Shown here piece after piece: positions 21,904 to 45,109 of a stretch of DNA of 64,000 nt. The stretch is from the IMG/VR virus record IMGVR_UViG_3300031991_000011, positions 1-64,000 of that record, one strand, 5' to 3'. This DNA is from a virus. Positions within the stretch are counted from its first letter, which is position 1. The number at the start of each line of letters is the position of its first letter. The translations under genes and the position numbers were made by a program. Below the pieces are notes generated by a model that saw nothing but the letters and a program-made list of their open reading frames with translations, did no database searches and was not told the origin of the DNA.

Positions 21904-22179
21904 TTAGATCAGCGGCGAGTTCGAGCCGATCACGCCGGCTTCGAGCGTGGCGAGACGAGCGCGCAGCGCGTCGAGTTCGGCCGCGACCGACCGCGTGGCC
22001 TGCGTCGAGTTCGAGTCGTTCGCGGTGTAGTCGATGTTCTCGGCGTTGAAGGTGCCTTGGCCGCCGAGCAGTTCGTCGATCATCTCGAAGCCGCGCTTGA
22101 CGGTGCGTTGCAGCGCGAAGATGCCGAGAACTTTGAGCGGCAACCCGAAGTTCGTGGTTTGGGGATCAGATACGGCCAT
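21904..22179 (-). CDS. hypothetical protein carrying a DSNS motif
   Basis: 91 aa; contains ANDSNSTQA encoded by the exact GAGTTCGAGTC 11-mer. Confidence 0.4.
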   Translation of the reverse strand: MAVSDPQTTNFGLPLKVLGIFALQRTVKRGFEMIDELLGGQGTFNAENIDYTANDSNSTQATRSVAAELDALRARLATLEAGVIGSNSPLI

Positions 22180-22260
22180 GGTGGTCTCTCCTTCGGTCGG
22201 CTTTAGCGCCGCCCATCAACGAGCCGAACCTATGACCAATCGCCTGCCTTTGTCCACACC

Positions 22261-23100
22261 CTAGCTGAGAGCTTGGTCAAGAGGCTGCCAGGGTGCCTCG
22301 GGGATACCCGGTTGCGTTGCACGCACAACCTCGACTCCCATTCCGCGCAAGATCAAGCACATGGGCCCCAGCTTCGCGGCGAATTTCGCGTAGTTGCAGG
22401 TGTTCGTTTTGACCTTGTGCTTGTTGTGCCACTGCGCCTCGCCTTTCGGTCCAACCTGCATGTCGATCCCGAAGAGCACGATCTTCCGGGCTCCCAGAAC
22501 CCAGGCGAGGTTGGTGGCCTGCGTCCCACTGTCCCACCCATGCAATCGACGTCGATCTGTGTTGAACTTGTTCCGGTCTCGCCAGAAGCGCTTGAGCCGC
22601 GGGTGGTAGACCTCGCTCACGTCGCTCGTGGCTGTCGTGATGATCTTCGGCTCCTTCCACTCCTTGAGAACTTTGACGTGATTCCAGCGCCACCACGGGC
22701 AGTCTGCGAAGTGCAGGACTTCCGCCCACGGCGCGATCTCAAACGACTGGTTGACCGCGATGCAGCGGTGTCCCTTCGTCACGGAGATGTCGAACGTCTT
22801 CAAGCTCGGGCCGCCGCCGATGATGCAGACGATCTCGCCGTCGAACATGCGCGGCGCGTCCCACGGGACGATCCCGCGCGGCCCGTGCGGGTTGTGATTT
22901 TCAGGCACCACACGATCTCGATACGGGCGTCGCACCGGCGTGGGTGCGGCTTGTCTCGGTGGCGACGGAGGCGGGGGCAACGCCCGCTTGATCCGCGGCC
23001 TAGGGTCCGGCGGTGGTTGTGTCCGCTGCTTCCGAGCAAGTTCTGCCTGCTGCTGGCGTCGCTCGGCGAGACGCTGGCGCCAGGGCTTGCCGTCCTTCAT
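22261..23100 (-). CDS. Maf/DUF115-like putative glycosyltransferase
   Basis: IVCIIGGGPSLK ... CIAVN ... ATNLAWVLGARKIVLFGIDM resembles the Maf (PF01973-like) GNGPSL / VN signature; paralog of 51891..52505. Confidence 0.5.
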   Translation of the reverse strand: MKDGKPWRQRLAERRQQQAELARKQRTQPPPDPRPRIKRALPPPPSPPRQAAPTPVRRPYRDRVVPENHNPHGPRGIVPWDAPRMFDGEIVCIIGGGPSLKTFDISVTKGHRCIAVNQSFEIAPWAEVLHFADCPWWRWNHVKVLKEWKEPKIITTATSDVSEVYHPRLKRFWRDRNKFNTDRRRLHGWDSGTQATNLAWVLGARKIVLFGIDMQVGPKGEAQWHNKHKVKTNTCNYAKFAAKLGPMCLILRGMGVEVVRATQPGIPEAPWQPLDQALS

Positions 23101-25778
23101 GGCGAGTTCGAGCTTTCCGGGCCGACGCACAGAGCAACGCCGCGAACGGCGGCCGTGTGAACAGCCGAGTAGTTGAGGTTGAAGCCGGTCGAGATGTGCG
23201 AGAACGTGGCGGCGACGGTCCCGAGAGACGTGCCGCGGCCGATCCGAAACTGGTTGGTGCGGGCACCGCACGCGCAGTTCGTCGGGTCGGCGCCGGCTTC
23301 GTTGAACACGGAGAAGCCAACACCGTCCGTGTCGTCGTAAGCGCCGAAGCCGAAGCCGCTGGCCTCCGCGGTGTTGAACACCGACGTGTCCCACGATTCG
23401 TTGCTCGTGCCGATCAACATCGTCAGATCGGGATTGAAGCCGGGCGTGGTGTAGTCCACCGAACCGGTGCTGGTCGGCGTCGTGAACGAGAACACACGCG
23501 CTTGTGCGCCTGGGATGTAGAAGAGGAGTTGATAGGTGTCTGTGTTGCCGAGCGCGGCGCCTGCGGTGTACGTCAGTCCATCGTCAGTCAGCGACCCGAC
23601 CGTGATGTGGTTGTGCGTCGCCGCAGACGGGGATTGTTGAGTCTCAACGCGAGTGTTCGATGCCACGAGGCCCGGCTGGCTGCCGGCGGGTTGCCCGTCC
23701 AATTGCGCAGCACCGAAGCAGCCCTGGTTGCCCGCAGAATCGAAGAAGCCGAGGCCCATACTGTAGACGGCGTTGTCGCCGTCGCCGTTCCCCGCGTTCG
23801 ACGCCTCGCCAAACTGGATGCCGAACGTCGGGTGGAACCCGATTCGATCCACCAAGTTTGCGCCGTTCGCGAAGTCGATCTCTTCGTTGATCCACACTTC
23901 CATCGTGTCGCCGGCCAGGAAGATCGCGACGAACTGGTGCGGGACACCGGACACGTCGTCGTAAGTGATTTCAATGCCGTTGGCGAACCAGTCGGTGACG
24001 CGGCACTGAATCGTCGTGTTCAAGATGGCGACGATCTCGCCGGGCGACGCCATGGAGATCACACGACCTTCGCGCTGTTCGCTGTTGCAGTCTGTCGAGG
24101 CTTGGGCGTCCTCGTGGTTCGCAGAGTACGCCCACTGGTGCCCGTAGCGCGTTGCTGCGCCGACCGCCGTCACGACGCCGTTGAAGTCGGAGCCCGATTG
24201 CGCCCACGTCCCCATGATGATGACGGCTTTGGGTACGCGCCCGCCGAGCTTGCTGGTCGAGATGATTTGCGTTTTCAGGGCCGTGCTGTTCGAGTCCGCT
24301 GTGCTGTTCGAGACCTCGTTCGCAGCATCCGGGCTGGTCGTGAACGGGTGCACGGCAATCGCGTAGTCGTCGGCCTTGTTGAGTTCGATGTAGCCGAACC
24401 CGCCGATTTGATATTGCGCGGTCTGCGCGGTCGCAGTGATGCCGTGAGAACTCGGCACCAGCGCACCAACGGTCTGACTCGAAAACGTGTATCCCTCACC
24501 AGAGTTGATGACACCTGCGTCTTGGCTCTCGGTGTAGTTGTTCGTCCCCGCAACGGCGCCGATGAACACGATGTCGTTCTGCCGAAGGAACACAGGCTCG
24601 GCGAGCGGGATCGTGTTGGCCCCGGTGATGGTCGCCGTGAAAACTTCGGTGAATGCGATCATGTTCGAGGGAACACCCGCACTGTTGGCAGAGTAGACAG
24701 CGGCCTGGAACGTCGTCGTGCCAGCGCCGGCGTCTGAGTTCGAGTCGAACGAGTCCCCGAAATAGCGCGTGACGTGGGTCAGCCACATGTCCTGCGGCAC
24801 TCGGTACTTCCGCATCCGGTAAGTCCCAGTCGTGCCGTTCTGATCTACGGCGATCCCAGGTGCCGTGCGACCGAGGTAAACATCTTCCGCATCAACATGG
24901 CAGCTTATCGAGACACGCCCGTGATTGCCGTTGCTCGGAGACACACCAGAGGTCTGTGCAATCGGAGTGTTCCAGCCGATATCGTCACGACCGCGAGTCC
25001 CGAGCGAGCTATCTTGGAAACTTTCAGACCAGACGTTCGCGCCGTCTTGCTTCGCGAACCCAGAGCCGCCAGCGCCACCACCGCCATTGGCACCGCCAGC
25101 GCCACCGTAGTAGCCGCCGCCGCCGCCGCCGGCATAATCGCCCGTGCCCTGGTCTACGAACCGACTCGTGTCCGTCCACCCACGGCCACCTTGGAATGCC
25201 GCGCCGCTGTTGCCGGCTTCTTCGCTGTTGACACCGCCGGCAATCTGCGAGCCGCCTGTCGTTTCGGTGCCACCTGGGAAGCCACTCTGACCTCCGCCGC
25301 GCCCGCCGTCGCTGTCGGTGAGCGAACCGTCCGAGTCTCCGCCACCACCGCCGGCTGCTCCATAGAGCACGCCGTTGAGGTAGATGCGCGAGCCACCGCC
25401 GCCACCAGAGCCCGCCGTCGCTCCCGCGTATGCCCCGTCTCCGCCGTCAGGCCACCCGCCGGCGCCGCCTTCGGTGTTGTCGGTTCCGTGCAGCCCGCCT
25501 TGCCCTGCATAGATCGCAATGATGTCGCCCGGCACCACGTTCATGATGCCCCGCGCGTGGCCGCCGCCGCCGCCAGTCCGCACCCCGAGATTACCGTTCG
25601 CGGCGGCGGCGCCCCAACAAGACCAGGAGATTGCGTAGCAGCCTTCCGGCACTGCCCGTTCGACGATGGCGCCGGTATAGTCGAAATTGGTGAGCCCGGC
25701 TACAAGCTCTTCGGCGAGGTTCACACGACGTGAACCCGCGACGAGACCCGGAATCTTGATGAGAGGATAAGCGGCCAT
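23097..25778 (-). CDS. tail fiber protein (Gly-rich)
   Basis: 893 aa with long GGxGG runs; several DSNS motifs; lies between the J-like gene and the lysis genes. Confidence 0.55.
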   Translation of the reverse strand: MAAYPLIKIPGLVAGSRRVNLAEELVAGLTNFDYTGAIVERAVPEGCYAISWSCWGAAAANGNLGVRTGGGGGHARGIMNVVPGDIIAIYAGQGGLHGTDNTEGGAGGWPDGGDGAYAGATAGSGGGGGSRIYLNGVLYGAAGGGGGDSDGSLTDSDGGRGGGQSGFPGGTETTGGSQIAGGVNSEEAGNSGAAFQGGRGWTDTSRFVDQGTGDYAGGGGGGYYGGAGGANGGGGAGGSGFAKQDGANVWSESFQDSSLGTRGRDDIGWNTPIAQTSGVSPSNGNHGRVSISCHVDAEDVYLGRTAPGIAVDQNGTTGTYRMRKYRVPQDMWLTHVTRYFGDSFDSNSDAGAGTTTFQAAVYSANSAGVPSNMIAFTEVFTATITGANTIPLAEPVFLRQNDIVFIGAVAGTNNYTESQDAGVINSGEGYTFSSQTVGALVPSSHGITATAQTAQYQIGGFGYIELNKADDYAIAVHPFTTSPDAANEVSNSTADSNSTALKTQIISTSKLGGRVPKAVIIMGTWAQSGSDFNGVVTAVGAATRYGHQWAYSANHEDAQASTDCNSEQREGRVISMASPGEIVAILNTTIQCRVTDWFANGIEITYDDVSGVPHQFVAIFLAGDTMEVWINEEIDFANGANLVDRIGFHPTFGIQFGEASNAGNGDGDNAVYSMGLGFFDSAGNQGCFGAAQLDGQPAGSQPGLVASNTRVETQQSPSAATHNHITVGSLTDDGLTYTAGAALGNTDTYQLLFYIPGAQARVFSFTTPTSTGSVDYTTPGFNPDLTMLIGTSNESWDTSVFNTAEASGFGFGAYDDTDGVGFSVFNEAGADPTNCACGARTNQFRIGRGTSLGTVAATFSHISTGFNLNYSAVHTAAVRGVALCVGPESSNSP

Positions 25779-25789
25779 GTGGTCTTCCT

Positions 25790-26785
25790 TTAGGCGGGAT
25801 CGAGATCGCCGAACACATACCAGCGGTTCGCGACCGAGCCTTTCACGATGCTGATCACAGAACCGTAGCCGCGAGTGAGCGGCGTCATGTCGGCGGGATA
25901 GATCAACTCGACGAGACCCGGAGAGTTCGAGTCCTCGACCGCCACGATCTGCACCTGCATGTCGCCCATCTGCACGAAGCTGACGGTGTAGCCTTTCGGC
26001 AGTGACACGAGCGCTTCTTCCGGCACGCCGACCGAGATGGAGGTCGCCGTCGAGTTCGAGTTGTCTGTGACCTCGAAGAACGAGCGGTTCTGCGCGAGCG
26101 ACAACGTGAAGTCCGCGGTCACTGCGACCGGGAAGTTCATGCGGGCCTGCGCGTAGAGATCGTCGAGGGCGTCGCCGACCGTCGTCTGGATCGAGTTCGA
26201 GTCGCCTTCGTCGGCCGCGTCGTACAACAGGGTGTGCGCTTCTCCGACCGATCCGCTACCGCCGCCCGCGCCGAACGAGTTCGAGTCGTCGTCGCGGTTT
26301 TCGTAGACCAGGATGCGGGCAGCGAGCGAGTTGGTGCGGTGATAGAGGTCGTCGAGCGCGTCGCGGACGTTGGTCTCCTCGGAGTTCGAGTCGCCCTCGG
26401 CGTCGTAGGTCACATCGCCGGCGCCGATTGAAGAACCGGAGAGAGCCGTCCACACGCCGCCGGTGTAGCGGTAGCGGCCACCGTCAGCGACGACGTAGAC
26501 CTCCCACCCTTCGCCGGGCGTGTAATAGACCCATTCCTCCAGGCCCGTGTCGCCCTCCCACAGGATGATCGAGCCGGACGGCCCGCTGTTGGAGTCCTCG
26601 GCCGTGAGGATGTGGGCGTCGCCTGCGCTCGGGGTGTCGGGCAGCGACGAGACGCGCGAGAGCACCACCTTCGTGACGAGCAGCGAGAGCTTGCGCAAGT
26701 CCTCGCTTGCGCGGGTGCCCCAGCCGTCCTCGCCGACCGTGTAGAAGGCTCGAAGCCCGAGCCCAGGGAGATCACGCGCTGCCAT
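25790..26785 (-). CDS. tail fiber / structural protein with 5-6 DSNS motifs
   Basis: 331-aa ORF in the tail fiber region. Confidence 0.5.
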   Translation of the reverse strand: MAARDLPGLGLRAFYTVGEDGWGTRASEDLRKLSLLVTKVVLSRVSSLPDTPSAGDAHILTAEDSNSGPSGSIILWEGDTGLEEWVYYTPGEGWEVYVVADGGRYRYTGGVWTALSGSSIGAGDVTYDAEGDSNSEETNVRDALDDLYHRTNSLAARILVYENRDDDSNSFGAGGGSGSVGEAHTLLYDAADEGDSNSIQTTVGDALDDLYAQARMNFPVAVTADFTLSLAQNRSFFEVTDNSNSTATSISVGVPEEALVSLPKGYTVSFVQMGDMQVQIVAVEDSNSPGLVELIYPADMTPLTRGYGSVISIVKGSVANRWYVFGDLDPA

Positions 26786-26797: not shown

Positions 26798-29503
26798 TTA
26801 AGCTCCACCGCCCCACGAATAGCCCCAGTTGAGGCCCCAGCCACCATAGCCGACGCGGACGTACAAGTCATATCCCTGCAAACTCTCGGTCGTGATGGCG
26901 CTGTTGCTGTCCTCGGAGTGCGCCTTCACGTTGATGCGGATGAGGTTCTTCCCCGAATATTCGTAGGGATCGAGCAGGTAGCTCTCGCCCGGAAGATCGA
27001 AGTGTTCCCCGAACATGGTCCCGGCCGCCGTGAAAAGCCGGACCACCGTTTTCACCGTGGTCGGCGGGGTGATCCCCGCCTCGGTCCACAGGAAGACGCG
27101 GGTCTCCTCCATGTCCCGGTTGCGGTTCGCCCACTCGACCGTGAGATCGCCGTCCGCCTCTGCGACGGCCACGAGATCAATCGGGGCACTCGGGTCCGAG
27201 TAACCGAAGCCGTTGATCCGCACGTTCGCCGGGCGGATCGGCCGGTTGGGCCGCAGATCGGCCGTGTAGACGATCTCAGGGGCGTCGTCGAGTTGGAGGG
27301 TGCCCAGGCTCGTCACCGGGAGAAGCTTATACTTGACCGTCTCTGCCTCAGCGCGGGCTATCGTGTCGCCGAAGGGAACGTCGGGCGAGATGAAGAACAC
27401 CTGCGTGCCGGCCGGCCATGCCCGAGGAACCGTGTCGAGCATGCCGCGCTCCACGATCCAGTTGTCGTTCGAGTCGAGATCGGACAGGAAGATGATCTCG
27501 CACTCGGCGTCGGGGTGCGAGGCATCCCCGATGTACGCGAAGCCCTCAAGCTCGGGGCCCACGCCGAGCGTGACGGCGCCGAACGCGATGATGCTCTGCG
27601 CCTCCTGCGCCAGCGGGTCTCCCAGGGTCGTGCGGCCGTTGAGGGTCTGGTTGCTGAGATTCTGATACTCGACCGACCCGCTGAGCGTCACGCCCTCGTT
27701 CCACAGTTCGTAGCGCGCGGTGTCCGTGCCGCCGGTGGATGCGAGAACCGCGGTGAACACTTCGGCGTCGTCGGGGAACGCCCCGGAGAACTGCGCGACC
27801 AGGAAGGCCGGCAAGGTGATCGGCTTCGTGTAGTCCATCGGCGCCGGGAACTCCGCGCCGATCTGGTGCTCGGTGTCCGGCGGCGCGAAGTAAGCGCCGA
27901 CGCGAAGGCCGAAGATGTCCTCCAGGAGCGAGACGCGAATCTTCGCTTCGCCGGTCTTACCGTAGTCCACGTTTCCGACGCGGAACACGACGTTCGAGAA
28001 TCCGAGCTTCGTGTTCGAGACCTTGATCACGCCACCGGGCACGGTGCTGTAGGCGCGTCGATCAACCTCGATGGTGCAGGACGCCAGCGGCGCGGCGGCC
28101 GTGCGCACGTCGCGTTGCGCGATGCGAGCGGCAAGGTCCGCGTTGCGAATGCCGTAATAGTTCCGGCTGTCGCTGACCACCCCGCCCTGCGAGATGACGT
28201 TGCCAAGCTCCTGCACGGAGACCGTGGCTTCGCTCTCGTTCAACGGGTTGGTGTAGGTGACGACGATCTCGTTGACCGTCTCGCCCCAGGACTTGCGCTG
28301 GAAGTCGAACAAACGGCAGTTCGACTCGTCATAGTGCGGCAGGGCGTCCACGTCGTAGTCGTCGCGCAGAAGCTTGATCGTGAACAGACCGGTCTCCGGG
28401 CTGACGAACGCCGTGGCCTGGATGTGGTCGAGGATTTCAGAAACGAACGTCTCGATGCTCGATTGCTGGAACCAGCCCAGCGAGAGACCGAAGCCTTCGT
28501 CGTAGAGCGTTTCTGCGGCGGACAGGAAGCTCGGAATGTCGAGAGCCGTTGCCGGCGCGCCCATGCCCCAATCGCTGTCGGTGAGACACTGGAAGATGAT
28601 GTGCGCAGGGTTCGCGTGCTCCAGGTTGTCCATGACGATGGTGGCGAGATCATCTGGCAACTCGGGCACGAGCACATCGTCCGTGACCATGGCCCAGAAG
28701 GCTTTCAGGTACGGGCTGTTGTGGCCCCAGTTGAAGCCCGAGAGGTTGGCGCCGGCAGTTCCGCGCGGGAAGAGAGCACCGAGTCGGCCGCCGTTGAAAC
28801 CGCCGGTGGGGTTCACGTTGATGGTCGCGACACCGATGATGTTGAACGCACCAGTGCCTTGCGACGTGATGTCCACGAACGGGCCTGCGGTCGCGTTCGC
28901 CTCCGACGTTGCGAACTTGATGTTCGCTTGCGTGGTTGTGCCGCCCTTCCCGCTGCGGCTTTCGCCGCTAATGTTGAGCCAGTAATCGACGCCGGCAGCG
29001 AGCCCGTCCGGCAGCGAGCCGGGCGACACAGCCTCCAACTGCACAGGGCCGTAGCCGGTTTCGATGTTGTAGGCGCTCTGCCAGGATGCGTTCACATGGT
29101 CGCCGGACACGCTGACGCGGGTGTTCGAGTAGACCGTCGTCGAGGCGTCTACGACTCCGGGCGAGGACGCGCCATAGAGGAACACGCTCGCGAGGCCGCG
29201 GAAGCCGGGGCACGTTGCGCTGCTTCGTCCGAGCCGCGATGCAAGATGCGACGGCATTACCTGCTCGGAGTCGCCGGGCAGGAAGGTGACGTTCCCGACA
29301 ACGCCGCCCTCTTTCGCAGGCCCGCCGAACAGGTCTGGCGAGTTCACCGGCACGTTCGCGAGCCCGGCGACGTTTCCGTTCCACACCGGCTTCTCGCCGA
29401 AGAACAACTGCCGCAAGCGCACCGGGCCGTGACAGATGCCGAAGTGAGTCGATAGCCGATACTCGGCCACCTTCATCTTCTGTTTGCCTTTGCCGCCGCC
29501 CAT
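26798..29503 (-). CDS. host-specificity (gpJ-like) central tail protein
   Basis: 901-aa protein at the end of the tail module; size and position typical of lambda J. Confidence 0.45.
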   Translation of the reverse strand: MGGGKGKQKMKVAEYRLSTHFGICHGPVRLRQLFFGEKPVWNGNVAGLANVPVNSPDLFGGPAKEGGVVGNVTFLPGDSEQVMPSHLASRLGRSSATCPGFRGLASVFLYGASSPGVVDASTTVYSNTRVSVSGDHVNASWQSAYNIETGYGPVQLEAVSPGSLPDGLAAGVDYWLNISGESRSGKGGTTTQANIKFATSEANATAGPFVDITSQGTGAFNIIGVATINVNPTGGFNGGRLGALFPRGTAGANLSGFNWGHNSPYLKAFWAMVTDDVLVPELPDDLATIVMDNLEHANPAHIIFQCLTDSDWGMGAPATALDIPSFLSAAETLYDEGFGLSLGWFQQSSIETFVSEILDHIQATAFVSPETGLFTIKLLRDDYDVDALPHYDESNCRLFDFQRKSWGETVNEIVVTYTNPLNESEATVSVQELGNVISQGGVVSDSRNYYGIRNADLAARIAQRDVRTAAAPLASCTIEVDRRAYSTVPGGVIKVSNTKLGFSNVVFRVGNVDYGKTGEAKIRVSLLEDIFGLRVGAYFAPPDTEHQIGAEFPAPMDYTKPITLPAFLVAQFSGAFPDDAEVFTAVLASTGGTDTARYELWNEGVTLSGSVEYQNLSNQTLNGRTTLGDPLAQEAQSIIAFGAVTLGVGPELEGFAYIGDASHPDAECEIIFLSDLDSNDNWIVERGMLDTVPRAWPAGTQVFFISPDVPFGDTIARAEAETVKYKLLPVTSLGTLQLDDAPEIVYTADLRPNRPIRPANVRINGFGYSDPSAPIDLVAVAEADGDLTVEWANRNRDMEETRVFLWTEAGITPPTTVKTVVRLFTAAGTMFGEHFDLPGESYLLDPYEYSGKNLIRINVKAHSEDSNSAITTESLQGYDLYVRVGYGGWGLNWGYSWGGGA

Positions 29504-29973: not shown

Positions 29974-30822
29974 TCAGTAGAACGTGTTGTAGAACGTGCC
30001 GAACGGGTGGTTGATCGGAATCCAGGGCTGCCCTCCGAAATTCAGGATGTTGTCGTGCAGGTCGCCACAGTCCGACATTTGGTGATTGCATCCGAGCGAA
30101 ATACGCACGGTCTGCGACGTGAGTCCAGTCGTGGGCCCGGTCATGTGAATCCGCGTCCCGCTCTCCACGTCGAGCACGGTGCGGATTTCCAGGTTGCCCT
30201 CGACCGTCGTCCACTCGATGACGCCGCCAGTGTACTTGTCGATCCTCGCGGGTGTGTCCCACCCTGCGGGCACGTCCACGTAGTTGCTGCCGATTGCGGT
30301 GGGGAGCACGGTGATCGTCGCGGCGCCGCGCGACGCCCTGCATTGCGTTCCGTAGAGAACGTGCGGGCACATGAACTGATAGTTCCGCCGCAGGCCGTTG
30401 CGCCGCATTGCAGTGACGATGGGCTCGCAAGAAAGTTCGCAGACGTGCGACCCGTCGCCGGCCTGCTTGCCGTTGAGCACTCGACCGGTCCACACCACGA
30501 CCCACTGCCGGTTGTCGTCGCTGAGATGCCCGCGGAATATCGTCAGCGTCACCGGATAGCTCGGCGGGTACGCGCGATAGAGTTGCGCGATCTCCGTCGA
30601 ACTCGGGAGTCGGACGACAAGCGTCTTCCGGTCAAGTGTTCCGCTGGATTGGATGTTGTCAGCCTCTACCGGAATTGGCGCGTAGACGCGGCTGTCGCGG
30701 ATGATCGGCTGCTCGGCGTTGGTGTAGGTGTAGATGGCCGTTGCCGCCAGCCCGTATCGGAACAGGAGCAGGTTGACCGGAACGGCGTCCTCGCGGGACT
30801 CTTCGCGTGATTGATAGCTCAT
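29974..30822 (-). CDS. tail protein
   Basis: ATG 30822 overlaps upstream stop (ATGA); rest of ORF 29974..30981 is GC-frame extension. Confidence 0.45.
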   Translation of the reverse strand: MSYQSREESREDAVPVNLLLFRYGLAATAIYTYTNAEQPIIRDSRVYAPIPVEADNIQSSGTLDRKTLVVRLPSSTEIAQLYRAYPPSYPVTLTIFRGHLSDDNRQWVVVWTGRVLNGKQAGDGSHVCELSCEPIVTAMRRNGLRRNYQFMCPHVLYGTQCRASRGAATITVLPTAIGSNYVDVPAGWDTPARIDKYTGGVIEWTTVEGNLEIRTVLDVESGTRIHMTGPTTGLTSQTVRISLGCNHQMSDCGDLHDNILNFGGQPWIPINHPFGTFYNTFY

Positions 30823-32628
30823 GACGTGCTCCCCGAGCCGCTTGCGCTGTCGCTGTTGCTGTCGTCGTCCGGCCCGTTGTAGGGCAGGGTTTCCATCGTG
30901 AGCGCCATCGTTGCAACGTCGCTGGTCTCCCAGCGGATCGTGAGCGTGTCGGTGGACATCCGCCAGAGCGGCATCCAGCAAACGTAGGCGATCTCGTCGA
31001 GGTCTGCGGTGACTCCCATCGGCTCGAAGAACTCGATGTAGCTGAAACCGCTCTCGCCGGTGATGTCGGAAATGCGCCGGTACAACACCGTGCCGTTGTT
31101 GAGGACGATTGCGACGCCGGCCGACGACCGTACCGCGTCTTGCACCCAGGCAACCGCGAAGTCGAGTCCGTCAATCCCGATGCGAGTGTCGAACTCATCG
31201 AACCCGTGCGCGAGAGGGATGTCGTCGCACCAAGTCGGCATGAAGAACTCGTGGCACCGACCGGCGCAGCGGAAGAAAAACTTCCGCAATTCGTCCGCGT
31301 CTTCCTGGTTCCGGCCGACATAGCTCAACGTGACACGCTGCGTGTGGTGCTCCACGTCTTGCAGGCGGTTGACCCGGCCGACGCCGAAGTCGATGAAGAC
31401 GGTCGGCTGCGCGTTGATCGCTTGCGCGCCTTCGGCCCAGTTCGGTTTGCGCAAGAAGACCTCACGCTGGTCGAAGAACACGCTCGGACTCGACGCCGGC
31501 TCGGCCGCCTCGAACCCCGGAACCGCCAGGAACTTCGCCGTGTAGGTCGCGACCGCGTTCGTCAGATACGTTCCGCTGATCTCGTCGGCCATCCACATGC
31601 GCAGCGCCGGGTAAATCTTAGTTCCGGCCGGCCACGCGAACTCGTCGTCCGATTTGTAGTTGACCGAGAACTCATCCGAGTTCGACTCGGTCCCGGTGTA
31701 AGGGCCGACCTTGCGCAACGAGATTTGGTCTCGGTGTTCAAGGATGACGTAGTTGTCCTCTTCCTTGAGCCACCACGGCGGCTCTTCTTCGAGGACCGAC
31801 ACGATGGCCTCCGCCGGCATGTCCGCCGCCGTTGTCGCGTATCGAGTTCTCTCGGGCACGTAGAACACGCCGCCTTGATTCGCCACCACGACCCGGTTGA
31901 GTTCGGAGCGGCTGACGCCGCGGAGCGCGACCGGCTGAGTGATAGTCTTGCGCGGCGTCTGCCGGTCCCGGATACGCTGCTCGGCCCCGTTCGCACTGGT
32001 GATGATGTTGGTCTTGAACTCGTACTCGATTTCGTAGGGTTGCGACCACTGCGGTTTGAACTCCCACACGAGGTCCGTCAGCGCAGGGACGCGGAAGCCC
32101 GTGACCGGAAGGAAGAACGTGTCGTCCGCAAAGTTGTCGGTGTCGAAGGTGAGCGTGAACAAGTCCGAGAGCACCGTCCCGCCATCGCCCTCTGCGGTGA
32201 ACGAGAAGAACTTGTACTCCAGGCCACGGAAGTTCGTCGGCAAGCCGCTGGCTTGGTCGAACACAACTTCGTCGCCGAAGTCCGGCGTCACCGTTTCGAG
32301 GGTGGTGTCGCCGAAGTATGCGTTCCAGATTCGGATCGAGATCGTCTTGTCCGCGGAGAAAGTTCCGAACGCGAGTGTTTCGACGTTGATGTAGATTCGG
32401 AAATAGAAGTCGTCGATCATCGAATACTGGCGAAGGCCGTCCTTCAACTCCCACGAGGTCTGCTGCATGTGGAAGTCGGTGTCGTGGCCGGCGTCGATGT
32501 CGTCCTCGCCCGCGTCCCAGGCGTGCGTGATCAAACCCGGAAGCACGAGGCCCGGAACACCCGTAGCCTCGTTGTTCGGGTAGGTGAAGCGCTCGTGAAG
32601 CGGAAGGATAACCCCTAGAGCCATCATG
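30819..32628 (-). CDS. tail protein (603 aa)
   Basis: ATG 32628 overlaps upstream TGA; C-terminal DDDSNSDSASGSGS tail. Confidence 0.45.
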
Positions 32629-40519: not shown

Positions 40520-41365
40520 TTAGGTGTACGCGGGCCGCTTGTCCATGTAGATCGCTTCCCGGTCGGTGCGCTTGAGCACTTCGATGGTGAAGGGGATCGA
40601 CTGCCACTCGTCGGCCTTGAGGTTGTAGTCGCCGTTCGGCGACACCTTGACCCACGGGAAGTAGTAATCGATGTCGTCGCCCGCCGGGTTGAACGCGATG
40701 TAGCGCATCGCGCCTTCGACCGGCTGCGAGCCCGAGATGACGCGCGTGTAGGTGGACGCGCGGATCGAGTAATCGACTTCGAGTTGCGTGCCGTTCGCGA
40801 TGCCGCCGCCGATGACGACGTACAGGCGACCGAGTTCGTAGTCGATGGTGTAGTCGGTGCCTTCGACATAGGCTTCGACCAGCGAGTTCGAGTTGTCGCG
40901 GTCGTAGACCACCGGGTTGACGCCGCCCGAGTTCGACGTGTCAGGGCCACCAGCGATGCCCTTGGCGCCGGCGGGCCGCGTGGTCGAAACGCCGAGTTGA
41001 TAGTGATAGCCCTGCGTGACGCCGTTGGTCGCGGCGAGAACTTCGTTGGTGATCGCGCCACCGGCCTCGACGATGCTCGACGCCGAGCCGAAGAAGAACA
41101 GCGCAACGTTCTCGGGATCGATGTCGTCGCAGACCATCGAGCCGGTGCGGTTGACTTGGAGAGCAATGCTCTCGTCCTTCTCGCGAATGCCGTGGTCAGA
41201 CGAGAAGTGATCGAGCACTTCCTGCTCGATGGTCAGCGAGAACTCGGGGGTGTTCCCGATGTAGCGTTCGTCGGGCGCGTCGAACGTGCCGGTGACGAAC
41301 CGCGCAAAGTGGACTTCGCCGCGGCCCAGCGTGTAGTTGGCCGTCTTGGTCGCTTGGGTAGCCAT
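40520..41365 (-). CDS. major tail protein
   Basis: 281 aa, position upstream of the chaperone pair; contains DTSNSGG and DNSNSLVE. Confidence 0.5.
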   Translation of the reverse strand: MATQATKTANYTLGRGEVHFARFVTGTFDAPDERYIGNTPEFSLTIEQEVLDHFSSDHGIREKDESIALQVNRTGSMVCDDIDPENVALFFFGSASSIVEAGGAITNEVLAATNGVTQGYHYQLGVSTTRPAGAKGIAGGPDTSNSGGVNPVVYDRDNSNSLVEAYVEGTDYTIDYELGRLYVVIGGGIANGTQLEVDYSIRASTYTRVISGSQPVEGAMRYIAFNPAGDDIDYYFPWVKVSPNGDYNLKADEWQSIPFTIEVLKRTDREAIYMDKRPAYT

Positions 41366-41488: not shown

Positions 41489-42058
41489 TCAGTCGTAAGG
41501 TCGTTCCAGGTCTTCCACCAGTTTGATCGTGACCTGGAGCCAGAAGTATGCCTTCCCCGAGATTTCGTCCGGCGGCCGGCACACCGGGCTCCCGATGATT
41601 ATGTCGGTCACGGCACCCTTGCCGTTTGCCCCATAGACACCCAGCAACGGCGTCATCACACGGCCGTATCGTTTCCGTTCTGCGGCGGGTCGTTCTTTCT
41701 CCGCTGCGAGTGCCATGATCACGTCGGCCGCCAGGAGGTAGGCGGGATCAGTGGGGTTGATCTTGTCTTCCTTGCAGAAGCCTTGGATCGAGATGTCCCA
41801 CGGGCCGCTAGATTCCTGCGACTCCTCGGGCGGCGGAATCTGATCGTTCGCAATCGGCGTCTCCAGGATTGCGATCATCGGCACGGGGTCGCCGTCGCCG
41901 AAGAGGTTTCGTCCGCGGAAGACGCGCCCTGAGAGATCGTTCTGATACTGCGGCGCGTCGGGCGCACTGTTGCTGTCAACCGAGATCGCTTCGAGCAGCG
42001 AGGTCAGCGCCATCATGACACGAAGCCGAAGCGGGTATTGCCATGTCGTCGTCATCAC
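41489..42058 (-). CDS. tail completion / head-tail protein
   Basis: 189-aa ORF in the head-tail region; contains VDSNSAPD. Confidence 0.4.
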   Translation of the reverse strand: MMTTTWQYPLRLRVMMALTSLLEAISVDSNSAPDAPQYQNDLSGRVFRGRNLFGDGDPVPMIAILETPIANDQIPPPEESQESSGPWDISIQGFCKEDKINPTDPAYLLAADVIMALAAEKERPAAERKRYGRVMTPLLGVYGANGKGAVTDIIIGSPVCRPPDEISGKAYFWLQVTIKLVEDLERPYD

Positions 42059-42660
42059 AAGCCCTCGACCTTCATCTGGCGCAAGAACTCGCGCTCCAGC
42101 GCGGACGCCACGTCATCTTCTATCTCCACCCATATGCCCTGGCGTTCGTCTCGGTGCAACAGAGCTTGTGACACGCTCGGGCCGTAGAGGGACCACAGAT
42201 TCTTGCCGATCTTCCGCGGCCGGAACGCGCCGGTTGGCTTCGTCGGCGAGCGAACCGCGAGCAGCGTGTTCTCGCCGCCGGCCCGGCCCGAGACCGAGAG
42301 CAAGAAGGCGCCGGGCAGAGAACGCACGCCGCCGGGCGCGACCTCGACCTTCACTTTGCCTTTGCCGCGCGCACTGCCGCTGACGAAGCGAGCCAGGGAT
42401 CGCGGATCGCTCGACGCTGAGAGTCGGCCCTCAAGGCGGCCCGCCGACGCCGGCCGCAGTGCGATCTTTCCATCTTGGCTCACCAGATAGCGGGCCGGGA
42501 AGTTCACCTGCTGGCGGAGCAGCCTCGACGACTGCGTGCGCGAGTTTCGGAGGATTTGATTGATGGCGCGGGACGCGATCTGCGCCGTCTGGCGCGGCAG
42601 CGACTCCAGGTCATCGAGCGAACGCAGTCCGCGAATCGTGACGGTGAACTCGTTTGCCAT
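42055..42660 (-). CDS. head-tail joining / minor tail protein
   Basis: 201-aa ORF with ATGA-type coupling. Confidence 0.4.
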   Translation of the reverse strand: MANEFTVTIRGLRSLDDLESLPRQTAQIASRAINQILRNSRTQSSRLLRQQVNFPARYLVSQDGKIALRPASAGRLEGRLSASSDPRSLARFVSGSARGKGKVKVEVAPGGVRSLPGAFLLSVSGRAGGENTLLAVRSPTKPTGAFRPRKIGKNLWSLYGPSVSQALLHRDERQGIWVEIEDDVASALEREFLRQMKVEGL

Positions 42661-43076
42661 TATTCATCCTCGGGCACCGGGAGCCCGGCAGCGTCGGCAG
42701 CGTCGAGCCGCGTGATGCGCGCCTTGATGGTTTCCTGGTCGTGTGGCTCGATCACGTCGAGCGAATACGCCTCGCCGACGCCGAGCGAGATGACTGCGTT
42801 GCGCACCAGTGTGATGCCTTTTTCCGTCAGTTCGCTGCGCCAGAAGATCGCTTGCGGGATAGGCTCGAACCGCTCGGCGCTGTTCAAGCTCGTGCCGGCT
42901 TGGTCGCCGAGCTTCGTCTGGTTCTCGTGGACCCTGACTTCAAGTTCGGGGATGTCACCGGCCGAGTTCGAGCCGGCCTCGACATACGGGATGCCATCGG
43001 CGAGATAGAGGCAGCGCGTCTTCATCGTCTGGTGGACGACGTTCCGCGCTGCCCGCTTGGTGTCTCGCCAGGACAT
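42660..43076 (-). CDS. head-tail connector protein
   Basis: 138-aa ORF. Confidence 0.4.
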   Translation of the reverse strand: MSWRDTKRAARNVVHQTMKTRCLYLADGIPYVEAGSNSAGDIPELEVRVHENQTKLGDQAGTSLNSAERFEPIPQAIFWRSELTEKGITLVRNAVISLGVGEAYSLDVIEPHDQETIKARITRLDAADAAGLPVPEDE

Positions 43077-43081
43077 GGCGG

Positions 43082-43519: not shown

Positions 43520-44614
43520 TCAGGGTGCCGAGTTCGAGTCTTCCAGAACCACTCGGGCGTGGAACGTCCGGTTGGGCTGGGTAAGAATCGGGAGCGGCGC
43601 GGATTGCGTCATGATGTTGAGGGCGGACGGGTCTTCCGCTTCCCACATCTTCGGGAACACCGCTTGCGGGCGCAGGCCGGCCTTCGCGTCGAGGATGGCG
43701 CCGAAGGCCATGACACCGCCGACATCGGGGGTGGAGATCACGAGATCGCGGGGATTCATGATGTCCACTTGGACGCCGCTGTTGTCCACGTAGAAGTCCT
43801 CGTAGAGGACGAACGTGAGATTGCCGTTGGTGCCGCTCAGCGTGCCCACAACCTGCCAGGGCTGGTCGGGGGTGCTGGACGCGATCAGCGCACGGGCGAT
43901 GCTGTTGCCTTCGCCGCCGCGAACGTTCGTGTCCATGAGTTCGAGCAGCGAAGTGTTCTTGCGCATCACGCGCCAGACTTCGCGGCCGAGAGTCACGACC
44001 GAGCCACGGCCGCCGCGTTCGGCGTTCGCCATCGCGTCGAGATATTCCTGGAACGCAGCCACGATGTCCGTGCTGGTCGTCCAGAAGCCGCTCGACTTGA
44101 TGTCTTCCAGCGCCGTGTCGCGGGCGTAGTCAACTTGCTGCGTCGGGCCGTCCTCGTACTCGACGAGAACCTTGCCGTAGATCATGGCCTGGGCGGCCAT
44201 GACTTCCCAGCGGCGCTCGATGATGTTGCGGTGATGGCGCAGGATCGCCTCGACCTCGGCGTCCCAGTTCTGGGCCGGCGTGCGCGGGGTATCGTCGAAC
44301 AGGTTGCCCGGCCGGCGGGTGAACTGCTCGGACGGGATCACCGGGTCGCGCGGCTTGATATAGGCCGGCGTGAAGCTCTTCGCCTTCGAGCCGCGACGCC
44401 GATAGGACGGCTTGCCGGGGACGGACGGCAGAACGAACGCAGCGACCTCGCGCGAGAAGTCGTTGATCTCCTCGAAGATGATCGACTGGCGATCCGACTG
44501 GAACACGTTGTTCGTGAACCCGCCGAGGTTGCGCCAATAGTTCGTGACCGTCTCCAGCCGCTGGTCGCGGTAGACGCCGAGCAGGGCTCGGGGGGAGATG
44601 ATTTCCAGAGACAT
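43520..44614 (-). CDS. major capsid protein (lambda gpE-like position)
   Basis: 364 aa downstream of the decoration and protease genes; C-terminal VVLEDSNSAP. Confidence 0.55.
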   Translation of the reverse strand: MSLEIISPRALLGVYRDQRLETVTNYWRNLGGFTNNVFQSDRQSIIFEEINDFSREVAAFVLPSVPGKPSYRRRGSKAKSFTPAYIKPRDPVIPSEQFTRRPGNLFDDTPRTPAQNWDAEVEAILRHHRNIIERRWEVMAAQAMIYGKVLVEYEDGPTQQVDYARDTALEDIKSSGFWTTSTDIVAAFQEYLDAMANAERGGRGSVVTLGREVWRVMRKNTSLLELMDTNVRGGEGNSIARALIASSTPDQPWQVVGTLSGTNGNLTFVLYEDFYVDNSGVQVDIMNPRDLVISTPDVGGVMAFGAILDAKAGLRPQAVFPKMWEAEDPSALNIMTQSAPLPILTQPNRTFHARVVLEDSNSAP

Positions 44615-44653
44615 TTTCGTCTACCTTTCGTGCGTTTGTGGTTGGGCCTTGGC

Positions 44654-45109
44654 TTAGCTCGGGGTGCCGGGCGACGCCGTGGCGATCTGATCCACCGTGA
44701 AGTTCGCGCCCGACGTTTCGAGCGACGTGCGCAGGGACGCGAGCGTCCAAGAGCCGTGCTTGTTGATCACGTCGAAGTTGAACACGCCGTTGAGATAGAA
44801 CTCAACGTCCTGGTTGTCGGCGCCGAGCAGCGAGTTCGAGTCCGCGAGACCCGAGTTCGAGTCGTTGTTCACGACCGCGTTGGCCGTGACGCCGACCGGG
44901 ACTTGCGAGCCATCGGCGGCGGCCGGGTTCGAGAGAACGAGCAGGCCCGTGCCGGTCACGCGACCGACCAGGGACAGGACCGGAAGGTCGGCCGAGGTTT
45001 CGCCGACCGAGGTCATCGTCGGCGCATGGAACCATGCGGCGTTGACCTGGGTGAACGTGTCGCTGTCTTGAGCAGCGAGACCCGGCGTGAAGGTCGGAAG
45101 AGCAGTCAT
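44654..45109 (-). CDS. head decoration protein (gpD-like position)
   Basis: 151 aa between protease/scaffold and capsid; two DSNS copies. Confidence 0.45.
   Translation of the reverse strand: MTALPTFTPGLAAQDSDTFTQVNAAWFHAPTMTSVGETSADLPVLSLVGRVTGTGLLVLSNPAAADGSQVPVGVTANAVVNNDSNSGLADSNSLLGADNQDVEFYLNGVFNFDVINKHGSWTLASLRTSLETSGANFTVDQIATASPGTPS

What the first reader, a model, noticed from the sequence alone, without database searches (positions are those of the whole stretch)
21904..45109. Recurrent D-S-N-S tetrapeptide, often the exact 11-mer GAGTTCGAGTC, embedded in-frame in about 12 virion genes and often as a C-terminal EDSNS tag
Seen directly in the sequence.
- The + strand 11-mer GAGTTCGAGTC (antisense to the - strand genes, encoding Asp-Ser-Asn-Ser) occurs exactly at 22007, 24736, 25923, 26203, 26277, 26383, 33722, 43530, 44831 and 44852.
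- One-base variants occur at 24287, 26052, 31678, 33423, 33531/33543, 34601 and 40894.
- An exact 11-mer is expected ~0.03 times in 64 kb.
- All copies lie in the same frame and orientation, inside tail fiber, J-like, distal tail, major tail, capsid, decoration and other virion genes. None lies in the + strand non-structural genes.
- At protein level about 25 DSNS/ESNS occurrences are seen, against an expectation of ~0.1.
- Capsid (VVLEDSNSAP*), 32624..33688 (VDVEDSNSLGA*), 33688..34737 (PEDSNSAFISSEESNS*), 30819..32628 (DDDSNSDSASGSGSTS*) and the fiber 23097..25778 (ESSNSP*) all end with this tag.

Inference: this is a shared modification or recognition tag on virion proteins. Candidates are an O- or N-linked glycosylation site for the co-encoded Maf-like/GT enzymes, a protease or crosslinking site, or a decoration-binding motif.

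The strong reuse of identical codons could alternatively reflect a DNA-level role. The motif contains the GANTC site GAGTC.
Basis: partly seen in the sequence, partly recalled or inferred. Interest (0 to 1): 0.85.

Follow-up and report, generated by a model that had tools for sequence, protein, structure and literature searches.

The report
Virion-wide D-S-N-S tag, likely glycosylation site
A small group of bacteriophages has inserted the four-residue peptide Asp-Ser-Asn-Ser into loops and onto the tail ends of almost all of its exposed virion proteins, and only these phages carry a matching set of sugar-transferase genes, so the peptide is most likely a compact attachment site for a sugar coat on the virus particle.

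Summary
GAGTTCGAGTC occurs 10 times on the + strand between 21.9 and 45.1 kb, against 0.16 expected. It encodes Asp-Ser-Asn-Ser in minus-strand virion genes.

At protein level there are 29 in-frame S-N-S sites (17 D-S-N-S) in 12 virion proteins, against about 1.7 expected. No credible gene elsewhere has one. Eight sites lie within 11 residues of a C-terminus.

The signal is a peptide, not DNA. Related metagenomic phages keep the motif in the same alignment columns and as the same C-terminal tags, with different codons.

Outside this clade, homologues end before the tags or lack the motif-bearing loops.

Only the clade carries the enzyme set:
- a cassette before the small terminase with a GT-A-like gene, a methyltransferase, a second Maf-like gene and a GT8-fold gene.

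The closest motif-free sister lacks the cassette.

Best explanation (about 0.6): D-S-N-S is the acceptor tag of a phage-encoded virion glycosylation system. No modification was observed; enzyme and motif share a single clade; the cassette could instead modify DNA.

The parts
21904..22179 (-). 91-aa small fibre-like protein with two tag sites: NDSNST (22006-22017) and C-terminal GSNSPLI* (21916-21927).
   Evidence: Orthologous 65-73-aa proteins in relatives share the fibre N-terminal anchor motif and end in DSNS tags.
22261..23100 (-). Maf-like transferase 1, 279 aa. Its ATG overlaps the stop codon of the fibre gene.
   Evidence: - Pfam PF01973 E 1.6e-5, below the curated cut-off; phrog_4603 E 1e-30.
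- Start context.
- 42 homologues, mostly on 58-70 kb phage contigs.
23097..25778 (-). 893-aa glycine-rich tail fibre with four sites: 24735-24746, 24303-24314, 24285-24296, and C-terminal ESSNSP* (23103-23114).
25790..26785 (-). 331-aa DUF2793 fibre protein with six sites: 26585-26596, 26381-26392, 26276-26287, 26192-26203, 26051-26062, 25922-25933.
   Evidence: Four of the sites are invariant columns in orthologues only 44-46% identical.
26798..29503 (-). 901-aa J-like host-specificity protein with one site, EDSNSA (26900-26911).
30819..32627 (-). 602-aa tail hub or assembly protein (phrog_1082) with two sites: TESNSD (31677-31688) and the C-terminal tail DDDSNSDSASGSGSTS* (30852-30863).
   Evidence: Non-clade homologues end about 20 residues earlier, at ...TLEDLPxE*.
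32624..33688 (-). 354-aa baseplate protein (phrog_687) with four sites: 33542-33553, 33530-33541, 33422-33433, and C-terminal EDSNSLGA* (32636-32647).
33688..34737 (-). 349-aa baseplate protein (phrog_687 paralogue) with three sites: 34600-34611, and a double C-terminal tag EDSNSAFISSEESNS* (33721-33732, 33691-33702).
   Evidence: Non-clade homologues stop at query residue 332, at ...YWALALE*.
40520..41365 (-). 281-aa major tail protein with two sites in a variable loop or insertion: 40928-40939 and 40883-40894.
41489..42058 (-). 189-aa head-tail joining or tail-completion protein with one site, VDSNSA (41966-41977), encoded GAC AGC AAC AGT.
   Evidence: The orthologue in L104 carries EDSNST.
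42660..43076 (-). 138-aa head-tail connector-region protein (phrog_4858) with one site, AGSNSA (42963-42974).
43520..44614 (-). Major capsid protein (lambda gpE family) with the C-terminal extension ...ARVVLEDSNSAP* (43529-43540).
   Evidence: All capsid homologues at 52% identity or more carry the tag; nearly all at 49% or less end at ...RARVLA*.
44654..45109 (-). gpD-like head decoration protein with two sites (44852-44863, 44831-44842) inside an insertion of about 16 residues.
   Evidence: The insertion is absent from the motif-free sister L105.
51137..51898 (-). 253-aa GT8-fold glycosyltransferase, directly upstream of the small terminase gene.
   Evidence: - Invariant DxD (D94, D96) in 40 homologues.
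- AF2 model pLDDT 92.
- Orthologues in motif phages L104 and L106; none in the sister L105.
51891..52505 (-). Maf-like transferase 2, 204 aa.
   Evidence: - HMM of the Maf-1 family E 3e-18; phrog_4603 E 3e-13.
- Orthologues in L104 and L106 at 56-62% identity; none in L105.
- 39 homologues on the same set of contig lengths as Maf-1.
52505..53086 (-). 193-aa SAM-dependent methyltransferase inside the cassette.
   Evidence: tblastn to the methyltransferases of L104 and L106. Pfam Methyltransf_23 E 1.9e-14.
53083..53766 (-). 227-aa GT-A-like nucleotide-sugar transferase (phrog_28018).
   Evidence: - Weak Pfam GT8 match; phrog_28018 E 2e-58.
- tblastn homologues annotated galT-like or nucleotide-diphospho-sugar transferase. 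They include CcrColossus gp129, which lies 2 kb from that phage's Maf-like gene.
- Orthologues in L104 and L106; none in L105.

Best explanation
[D/E/N/G]-S-N-S is a short linear acceptor tag (a sequon) for a phage-encoded protein glycosylation system that works in the cytoplasm.

**Proposed steps (all inferred)**
- During late gene expression, one enzyme recognises exposed D-S-N-S peptides on virion subunits and attaches a sugar, most likely O-linked to one of the two serines.
- The candidate initiators are the fibre-module Maf-like transferase (22261-23100) or one of the two GT-A/GT8-type transferases.
- The other transferases (Maf-like 2, GT8-fold, GT-A-like) and the methyltransferase extend and tailor the glycan.
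- Donors come from the host, because no nucleotide-sugar synthesis genes were found among the genes scanned. UDP-hexoses would serve the GT8-type enzymes. A CMP-activated ulosonic or nonulosonic acid (Kdo, pseudaminic or legionaminic acid) would serve the Maf-like enzymes.
- The result would be a glycan coat on capsid, decoration protein, tail tube, baseplate and fibres.

**Shown here**
- The motif is selected at the peptide level.
- It is confined to virion proteins.
- It sits in appended termini and inserted loops.
- It is conserved across the clade.
- It shares its distribution with the enzyme genes.
- The enzyme folds are as stated.

**Inferred**
That a glycan is attached at all, which residue carries it, which enzyme reads the motif, and which sugars are used.
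For: 1. **Peptide-level selection.** There are 29 sites against about 1.7 expected. The same columns are invariant in orthologues only 44-46% identical and in paralogues only 24% identical. Codons turn over: GAC AGC AAC TCC dominates in the L100 fibre, which has 18 GDSNST repeats.
2. **Tag-like placement.** The C-terminal tails are appendages. Capsid homologues at 52% identity or more all end ...ARVV-(E/Q)EDSNS(xx), while nearly all at 49% or less end at ...RARVLA*. The same holds for three baseplate proteins compared with dozens of non-clade homologues. Internal sites lie in an insertion (decoration protein) or a variable loop (tail tube).
3. **Only some virion proteins carry it.** Sites are on capsid, decoration protein, tail tube, baseplate and fibres. 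There are none in the 1580-aa tape measure, chaperones, portal, protease, terminase or any non-structural gene.
5. **Shared distribution.**
   - Of 80 related tail modules from IMG/VR, only the one with the close Maf-like gene (L020) is clearly enriched. L021, a 4.8-kb fragment of the same clade, has 2 SNS sites including 1 [DE]SNS.
   - Among the rest, SNS counts are 0-3 (about expectation) and the only [DE]SNS is one site in L040. About 25 of these loci have full 10-kb flanks.
   - All 7 further motif-clade phage contigs examined are enriched: L001, L002, L004/L020, L100, L102, L103/L104 and L106. Six carry a Maf-1 orthologue at 43-65% identity. L106 covers only the head region and carries the cassette.
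   - The closest motif-free sister (L105, capsid 48% identical) lacks the cassette and every site.
   - Maf-2, Maf-1 and tagged capsids occur on contigs of identical lengths in at least 10 cases.
6. **Precedent.** Maf enzymes O-glycosylate exposed Ser/Thr, and one accepts CMP-Kdo as well as Neu5Ac (PMC11339370). Phage-encoded glycosyltransferases are reported to glycosylate mycobacteriophage capsid proteins (doi 10.1016/j.chom.2023.05.028 as described in PMC11256854; the paper itself was not readable here).
Against: - No chemical evidence of any modification exists.
- Motif and enzymes are both traits of a single clade, so their co-occurrence is one evolutionary event, not many.
- More distant Maf-like genes are not accompanied by the motif. 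These are the Caulobacter jumbo phage CcrColossus, L101, L043/L044 and 13 MAG loci.
- Characterised Maf enzymes have no known short sequon and use extra N- and C-terminal domains that are missing here.
- The terminase-proximal GT cassette could instead glycosylate DNA, as shown for other phage GT-A and GT-B enzymes (bioRxiv 10.1101/2023.12.21.572611). The window does encode a C5 cytosine methylase and nucleotide-pool enzymes.
- The MptE-like fold also covers pyrophosphokinases, so the chemistry could differ.
Confidence: 0.6

Rival explanations
1. D-S-N-S is an unmodified functional peptide. It could be a docking or adhesion motif, for example a divalent-cation site, a contact for a clade-specific accessory protein, or a ligand for a host surface structure. 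Under this reading the glycosyltransferase genes act on something else: phage DNA, host envelope glycans or the host flagellum.
For: - The peptide-level conservation and exposed placement fit a binding motif as well as a sequon.
- Acidic residues often precede the motif: E or D at position -2 in 14 of 27 sites counted. This gives [DE]-x-S-x-S, which resembles a metal-binding D-x-S-x-S signature (from my own knowledge).
- Phage GT-A and GT-B enzymes near terminase or structural genes can be DNA-hypermodifying. The window has a C5 methylase followed by an uncharacterised 393-aa gene.
Against: - A binding motif would not be expected on twelve unrelated proteins at very different places in the particle, including capsid, tail tube and connector proteins.
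- A four-residue tag at a free C-terminus cannot form a MIDAS-type metal site by itself.
- No clade-specific candidate binding partner was identified.
- No thymidylate-synthase-like or TET/JBP-like gene was detected among the genes scanned.
- Maf-like 1 is embedded in, and translationally coupled to, the fibre genes.
Confidence: 0.2
2. D-S-N-S is the target of a different covalent modification made by the same gene set. Examples are phosphoryl or pyrophosphoryl transfer by the MptE-like enzymes, or methylation by the cassette methyltransferase. Glycosylation would then be absent or secondary.
For: - A SAM methyltransferase is a conserved cassette member, present in one or two copies.
Against: - Two GT8/GT-A-type enzymes in the same cassette point to sugar chemistry.
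Confidence: 0.1
3. D-S-N-S is a processing or crosslinking site: cleavage by the S49 prohead protease, autocleavage at Asn, or isopeptide formation through Asn.
For: - Asn-Ser bonds are chemically labile (from my own knowledge).
- The module encodes an S49 protease.
- Several sites lie close to C-termini.
Against: - The sites are on tail fibres, baseplate and tail tube, which a prohead protease does not meet.
- Some tags end exactly at ...SNS*, leaving nothing to remove.
- Eighteen repeats in one fibre would fragment it.
- There is no conserved partner lysine.
Confidence: 0.05
4. The signal acts at the DNA or RNA level. The 11-mer would be a methylation site (GANTC), a recombination or packaging-orienting site, or an RNA element complementary to the T-arm of the phage tRNA-His.
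For: - The exact 11-mer is used about three times more often than codon usage predicts: 10 of 17 DSNS sites against 3.5 expected, P = 6e-4.
- It contains GAGTC.
- It is the perfect complement of 11 nt of the T-arm of the phage tRNA-His.
Against: - All copies are in one reading frame, and none is intergenic apart from the tRNA itself.
- Relatives keep the peptide but not the nucleotides. L100 has 0 exact 11-mers in about 25 sites, mostly AGC at the first Ser.
- GANTC is depleted in the window: 261 observed against 360 expected.
- Seven of the eleven positions are fixed in any tRNA T-arm, so the tRNA match is plausibly chance.
Confidence: 0.03

Closest known systems
Virion glycosylation in mycobacteriophages (Che8 and other cluster F1 phages; Freeman et al. 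2023, doi 10.1016/j.chom.2023.05.028)
   Same: Phage-encoded glycosyltransferases are reported to decorate major capsid proteins made in the bacterial cytoplasm (as described in PMC11256854). From my recollection of the paper, C-terminal extensions of capsid and tail-tube subunits serve as acceptors. Here the capsid also carries a clade-specific C-terminal extension.
   Different: - The host type differs: these are phages with alphaproteobacterial signatures (GapR, Caulobacter and Brevundimonas phage homologues), not actinobacteriophages.
- The enzyme types are Maf/MptE-like plus GT8-type.
- A sharply defined four-residue motif is present.
- The motif is spread over 12 virion proteins, including fibres, baseplate, connector and decoration proteins.
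- Homology between the enzyme sets was not tested, and the paper could not be read here.
Maf flagellin glycosyltransferases (Pfam PF01973; Magnetospirillum Maf, PDB 5mu5; Campylobacter, Aeromonas and Clostridium Maf)
   Different: - The phage proteins are 204-279 aa and consist of the central domain only. Maf-1 adds a short clade-specific N-terminal helix and the HNPHxPRG segment. They lack the N- and C-terminal domains of the roughly 600-aa Maf proteins.
- The presumed acceptors are virion proteins, not flagellin.
- A strict short motif is not known for Maf enzymes.
Bacterial N-glycosylation sequon D/E-X-N-X-S/T (PglB)
   Same: Both are short linear motifs with an acidic residue two positions before an Asn. 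D-S-N-S-T, as in the L100 fibre repeats, formally matches it.
   Different: - Most sites lack S or T at position +2. Several tags end at ...SNS*.
- PglB acts in the periplasm, whereas virions assemble in the cytoplasm.
- No oligosaccharyltransferase was found among the genes scanned.
Phage DNA-hypermodifying glycosyltransferase clusters (bioRxiv 10.1101/2023.12.21.572611)
   Same: Those clusters also hold several phage GT genes, sometimes with methyltransferases, and sometimes lie next to terminase or structural genes.
   Different: - Those clusters sit next to a C5 methylase with a 5mYOX enzyme, or next to a thymidylate-synthase homologue, and use JGT/TarP-like GT-A or T4 beta-GT-like GT-B enzymes.
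- Here the cassette is 40 kb from the C5 methylase.
- No 5mYOX or ThyS homologue was detected.
- The folds here are Maf-like and GT8-like.
- The cassette tracks a peptide motif.
Maf-like plus GT-A gene cluster after the tail genes of Caulobacter and Brevundimonas jumbo phages (CcrColossus gp126-gp131)
   Same: Homologues of both Maf-like 1 (34-37% identity) and the GT-A-like gene (36-38% identity) lie together immediately after the last tail gene, with a methyltransferase and another GT.
   Different: The CcrColossus tail proteins in that locus show no S-N-S enrichment: one site in about 5000 residues. If those enzymes modify virion proteins, they use another acceptor.

Membership tests
Maf flagellin nonulosonic-acid glycosyltransferases (PF01973) | Central MptE/Maf_flag10 catalytic domain | tested here: met
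   - The Pfam match is below the curated cut-off (25.2 bits against 34.6). Precomputed PF01973 is listed for most homologues.
- phrog_4603 E 1e-30 and 3e-13.
Maf flagellin nonulosonic-acid glycosyltransferases (PF01973) | Three-domain architecture of about 600 aa, with N-terminal Rossmann-like and C-terminal helical domains (PMC11339370) | tested here: not met
   The proteins are 279 and 204 aa. The model shows one globular domain plus an N-terminal helix and linker.
Maf flagellin nonulosonic-acid glycosyltransferases (PF01973) | Flagellin acceptor and CMP-nonulosonic acid donor | not testable with these tools
   The window has no flagellin gene. Donor and acceptor need biochemistry.
GT8 retaining glycosyltransferases (LgtC, glycogenin, GlyE) | GT-A fold with a DxD metal and nucleotide-sugar motif | tested here: met
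GT8 retaining glycosyltransferases (LgtC, glycogenin, GlyE) | Match to Pfam PF01501 above the curated threshold | tested here: not met
   The window protein has no Pfam hit. Three of 40 homologues give weak hits (best E 4e-4). Gene 53083-53766 scores 18.8 bits against a cut-off of 24.3.
Phage virion glycosylation of the mycobacteriophage Che8 type | Phage-encoded glycosyltransferases together with acceptor extensions on capsid or tail-tube subunits | tested here: met
   Four GT-like genes are present. The capsid carries a clade-specific C-terminal extension. The tail tube carries loop sites rather than a terminal tag.
Phage virion glycosylation of the mycobacteriophage Che8 type | Glycan demonstrably attached to virion proteins | not testable with these tools
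   This needs mass spectrometry or glycan staining of virions.
PglB-type N-glycosylation sequon D/E-X-N-X-S/T | Ser or Thr at position +2 from the Asn | tested here: not met
   The residue after S-N-S is T in only 5 of 27 sites counted. It is A, L, G or P in most, and some tags end at SNS*.
DNA sequence motif (GANTC methylation site or another site-specific element) | Conservation of the nucleotide string independent of reading frame and codon choice | tested here: not met
   All copies are in one frame. Relatives keep the peptide with other codons. GANTC is depleted: 261 against 360 expected.
Phage DNA-hypermodifying GT clusters (C5-MT/5mYOX or ThyS plus GT) | GT genes adjacent to a 5-methylpyrimidine dioxygenase or a thymidylate-synthase homologue | tested here: inconclusive
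   No such Pfam domain was found in the genes scanned. The cassette is 40 kb from the C5 methylase. The 393-aa gene next to the methylase has no detectable family.

The most novel reading that the evidence does not exclude
A phage lineage has evolved a minimal four-residue sequon, D-S-N-S, that it grafts onto loops and C-termini of every exposed virion protein. A self-encoded cytoplasmic pathway would then coat the whole particle (capsid, decoration protein, tail tube, baseplate and fibres) with a glycan containing an ulosonic or nonulosonic acid built from host nucleotide sugars. The pathway would consist of two single-domain Maf-like transferases, two GT8/GT-A enzymes and a methyltransferase. 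This would be the first defined short sequon for Maf-type enzymes, and the first whole-virion glycan coat in a phage of Gram-negative bacteria.
Probability: 0.45. Interest if true: 0.88.

Novelty: new variant of a known kind. Interest (0 to 1): 0.78.

Why it matters
- **A rare kind of motif.** If D-S-N-S is an acceptor tag, it is a very short, portable, position-tolerant sequon for cytoplasmic protein glycosylation in bacteria. It works in loops, in repeats and at free C-termini. Known Maf and most bacterial O-glycosylation systems lack such a motif, and glyco-engineering would want one.
- **Wider reach for virion glycosylation.** It would extend phage virion glycosylation from actinobacteriophages to phages of Gram-negative (probably alphaproteobacterial) hosts, and from capsid and tail tube to the whole particle.
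- **Consequences for phage biology.** A glycan coat would bear on adsorption, particle stability, grazing, and recognition by immune or defence systems.
- **Directly testable.** A tagged reporter plus five small genes is enough for a test.
- **Value even if wrong.** If the tag is not glycosylated, a four-residue peptide under strong selection on twelve unrelated virion proteins still lacks any known explanation.

Tried and rejected
**Searches that gave nothing useful**
- Megablast of the 23-kb module against 50,697 phage records found no match. No isolated close relative exists in that collection.
- Single-protein locus searches in IMG/VR with Maf-1 and with the capsid found nothing. Alignments were needed.
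- The one scan of GTDB genomes with the Maf-1 alignment found only remote homologues (28-34% identity) in MAGs, none with the motif. There is therefore no prophage and no host assignment.
- PDB sequence searches for the GT-A-like, GT8-fold and 393-aa proteins gave nothing useful. NCBIfam gave nothing for any of the enzymes.
- Literature searches for DSNS, sequon plus phage, and Caulobacter phage plus sialyltransferase found no description of this motif. The Freeman 2023 paper is not held.

**Hypotheses tested and rejected**
- Independent-lineage test: the Caulobacter jumbo phage CcrColossus has homologues of Maf-1 and the GT-A-like gene, but its tail proteins show no SNS enrichment. The motif is therefore not a general property of this enzyme family.
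- DNA-level motif: rejected.
- PglB sequon: rejected.
- A single repeated domain as the source of the motif: rejected. A 40-residue fibre repeat carries it, but the other ten proteins are unrelated to that repeat.
- Complementarity to the tRNA-His T-arm: judged coincidental.

**Correction of my own work**
My first automatic gene call missed Maf-like 2 and the methyltransferase because of their low GC3. They were recovered by HMM search and tblastn.

Full report
**What the window is**

The window is most of a siphovirus genome of about 68.5 kb with 63% GC. The capsid protein is 100% identical to one on a 68,549-bp metagenomic contig.

Minus-strand genes from 50.6 to 21.9 kb form a lambda-like virion module:
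- gpA-type large terminase, 48431-50617
- portal, 46443-48161
- S49 protease, 45140-46450
- gpD-like decoration protein, 44654-45109
- gpE-like capsid, 43520-44614
- connector proteins
- major tail protein, 40520-41365
- chaperones
- 1580-aa tape measure, 34737-39479
- baseplate proteins
- a J-like protein and two fibres

No isolated phage is close at the DNA level. A GapR-like gene and best hits to Caulobacter and Brevundimonas phage proteins suggest an alphaproteobacterial host. This is inference only.

**Checking the observation**

The 11-mer occurs 10 times on the + strand in the stated interval, against 0.16 expected. A few coordinates were off by 1-10 nt. An eleventh copy on the other strand is the T-arm of a phage tRNA-His.

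In frame, the module has 29 S-N-S sites in 12 genes, 17 of them D-S-N-S. A first tally of 27 sites (one gene boundary was mis-set) compared with 1.7 ± 1.3 in residue shuffles. SNS and DSNS are the top tri- and tetrapeptide outliers.

There are no sites in the tape measure, chaperones, portal, protease, terminases or the non-structural genes. Eight sites lie within 11 residues of a C-terminus (P about 1e-6).

**Peptide or DNA?**

Within the window, seven sites already use other serine codons, for example GAC AGC AAC AGC.

Seven further contigs of the same phage clade were examined. Six were retrieved through the Maf-like protein and one (L106) through its capsid. Maf-1 identity is 43-65%, capsid identity 46-77% and GC 56-64%.
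- They carry the same motif at the same alignment columns and as the same C-terminal tags, with free codon turnover.
- One fibre has 18 GDSNST repeats, mostly GAC AGC AAC TCC, with no copy of the 11-mer.
- GANTC is depleted in the window.

The signal is therefore a peptide under purifying selection. The recurrent 11-mer is that peptide seen through strong codon bias. There is also a window-specific excess of TCG at the first serine (10 of 17 exact copies against 3.5 expected). I cannot explain that excess, and relatives do not share it.

**Anatomy of the tags**

In two fibre proteins the motif sits in a repeat of about 40 residues, (V/I)xYDxxDxG-DSNS-TxTTVxxALDDLYxR.

Elsewhere it is an add-on:
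- All 23 capsid homologues at 52% identity or more end ...ARVV-x-E-D-S-N-S plus 0-3 residues. One variant reads DSNT.
- All but one at 49% identity or less end at ...RARVLA*.
- Three baseplate proteins carry 8-20-residue tails with one or two copies. Dozens of non-clade homologues lack these tails.
- The decoration protein carries two copies in a 16-residue insertion.
- The tail-tube sites lie in a variable loop with a window-specific extra insertion.
- Small 65-91-aa fibre-like proteins downstream of the fibres are little more than an anchor, a helix and a DSNS tail.

Independent grafting of one tetrapeptide onto unrelated, exposed parts of the particle argues for a common reader.

**Candidate readers**

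An HMM of this family found a second, shorter paralogue at 51891-52505. That gene lies in a tightly packed cassette just upstream of the small terminase gene:
- a GT-A-like gene, 53083-53766
- a SAM methyltransferase, 52505-53086
- Maf-like 2

No nucleotide-sugar synthesis genes were seen among the genes scanned. Donors would have to come from the host. One characterised Maf accepts CMP-Kdo, which any Gram-negative host makes (PMC11339370).

**Distribution**

Eighty related tail modules came from IMG/VR, with 37-56% identity in a conserved baseplate protein.
- Only the locus with the close Maf-like gene (L020) is clearly enriched. L021, a 4.8-kb fragment of the same clade, has 2 SNS sites including 1 [DE]SNS.
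- Among the rest, SNS counts are 0-3 (about expectation) and the only [DE]SNS is one site in L040. About 25 of these loci have complete 10-kb flanks.

The most divergent member examined is a 58-kb contig with 56% GC. It has Maf-1, the cassette (with two methyltransferases) and the motif on decoration, connector, tail-tube, baseplate and fibre proteins, although its capsid lacks the tag.

The nearest motif-free sister (capsid 48% identical) has unrelated genes in the cassette position and no site in 19 head and tail proteins.

Maf-1, Maf-2 and tagged capsids occur on contigs of identical lengths in at least ten cases.

More distant Maf-like genes come without the motif. These are 41% identity or less, lack the N-terminal MKDGxPWR...HNPHxPRG extension, and occur in CcrColossus, in MAGs and in L101, L043 and L044.

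**Interpretation**

The best-supported mechanism is that D-S-N-S is the acceptor tag of a phage-encoded, cytoplasmic virion-protein glycosylation pathway (confidence about 0.6).

Four things are not resolved: which enzyme reads the motif, which residue is modified, which sugars are used, and whether all cassette enzymes act on protein.

There are three main caveats:
1. There are no chemical data.
2. The enzyme-motif association is one clade, hence one evolutionary event.
3. Phage GT clusters near terminase genes can glycosylate DNA (bioRxiv 10.1101/2023.12.21.572611). This phage has a C5 methylase next to an unidentifiable 393-aa gene, plus dCMP deaminase, MazG and a dATP/dGTP diphosphohydrolase-like gene.

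The rivals are an unmodified binding motif (0.2), a different modification by the same enzymes (0.1), a processing or crosslink site (0.05) and a nucleic-acid-level signal (0.03).

**Comparison with known systems**

The closest functional analogue is virion glycosylation in cluster F1 mycobacteriophages. The closest enzyme relatives are Maf flagellin glycosyltransferases and GT8 enzymes.

The system is not a member of the Maf family in the strict sense, because it lacks the three-domain architecture and the flagellin acceptor. It fails the PglB sequon test.

I found no description of this motif in the searchable literature.

I rate it a new variant of a known kind, namely phage-encoded virion glycosylation. 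Two features are unusual: a defined four-residue tag, and its spread over the whole particle.

Noticed in passing
window 20583-20656 (- strand): A phage tRNA-His (GTG) has a T-arm that is exactly GAGTTCGAGTC. The virion mRNAs therefore carry ten perfect 11-nt complements of it. This is probably chance, because seven of the eleven positions are fixed in any T-arm.
   Followed up: partly
window 9825-10817 and 10833-12014 (+ strand): A C5 cytosine DNA methylase is followed directly by a 393-aa gene with no Pfam, NCBIfam or PDB match (weak phrog_5931 only). In other phages the gene next to such a methylase is a 5-methylpyrimidine dioxygenase that feeds DNA glycosylation. This bears on what the GT cassette modifies.
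   Followed up: partly
window 13008-17266 and 18456-19151 (+ strand): A block of nucleotide-pool and DNA-modification genes: MazG, dCMP deaminase, a protein with a dATP/dGTP diphosphohydrolase N-terminal domain (PF18909), a 619-aa HTH_8/phrog_1745 protein, and an MT-A70 methyltransferase. The block is conserved in relatives (L001, L002, L004, L102) and hints at non-canonical DNA bases.
   Followed up: no
window 17253-17540 (+ strand); also L001, L002, L004, L102, L103: A GapR-like DNA-binding protein (PF10073, E 1e-16) and a neighbouring Band_7/SPFH protein are conserved across the clade. GapR is typical of Alphaproteobacteria and their phages, which gives a hint about the host.
   Followed up: no
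window, all 27 SNS sites counted: The first serine of S-N-S is TCG in 22 of 27 sites against 41% background (P = 2e-5). The second serine follows background. Relatives do not show this, and it is unexplained.
   Followed up: partly
window, whole sequence: GANTC sites are under-represented: 261 observed against 360 expected from a first-order Markov model. This fits a host or phage with a GANTC-specific methyltransferase or restriction pressure.
   Followed up: no
L100:10951-13545: An 864-aa fibre in a related phage is built from 18 tandem modules of about 40 residues, each starting with DSNS(T) followed by TTVxxALDDLYxR. In this phage the Maf-like gene sits between the J-like gene and this fibre.
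   Followed up: partly
window 52505-53086; L104:1058-2115; L106:1902-2432: The methyltransferase slot of the cassette varies. There is one copy in the window and in L106, and two diverged copies in L104. This suggests lineage-specific tailoring of the product.
   Followed up: no
L006 (CcrColossus 98832-103385): Caulobacter jumbo phages carry a Maf-like gene, a GT-A-like gene, a methyltransferase and a GT9-like gene directly after the last tail gene. They show no S-N-S enrichment in the tail proteins. Their target is unknown and might be a different recurrent peptide.
   Followed up: partly
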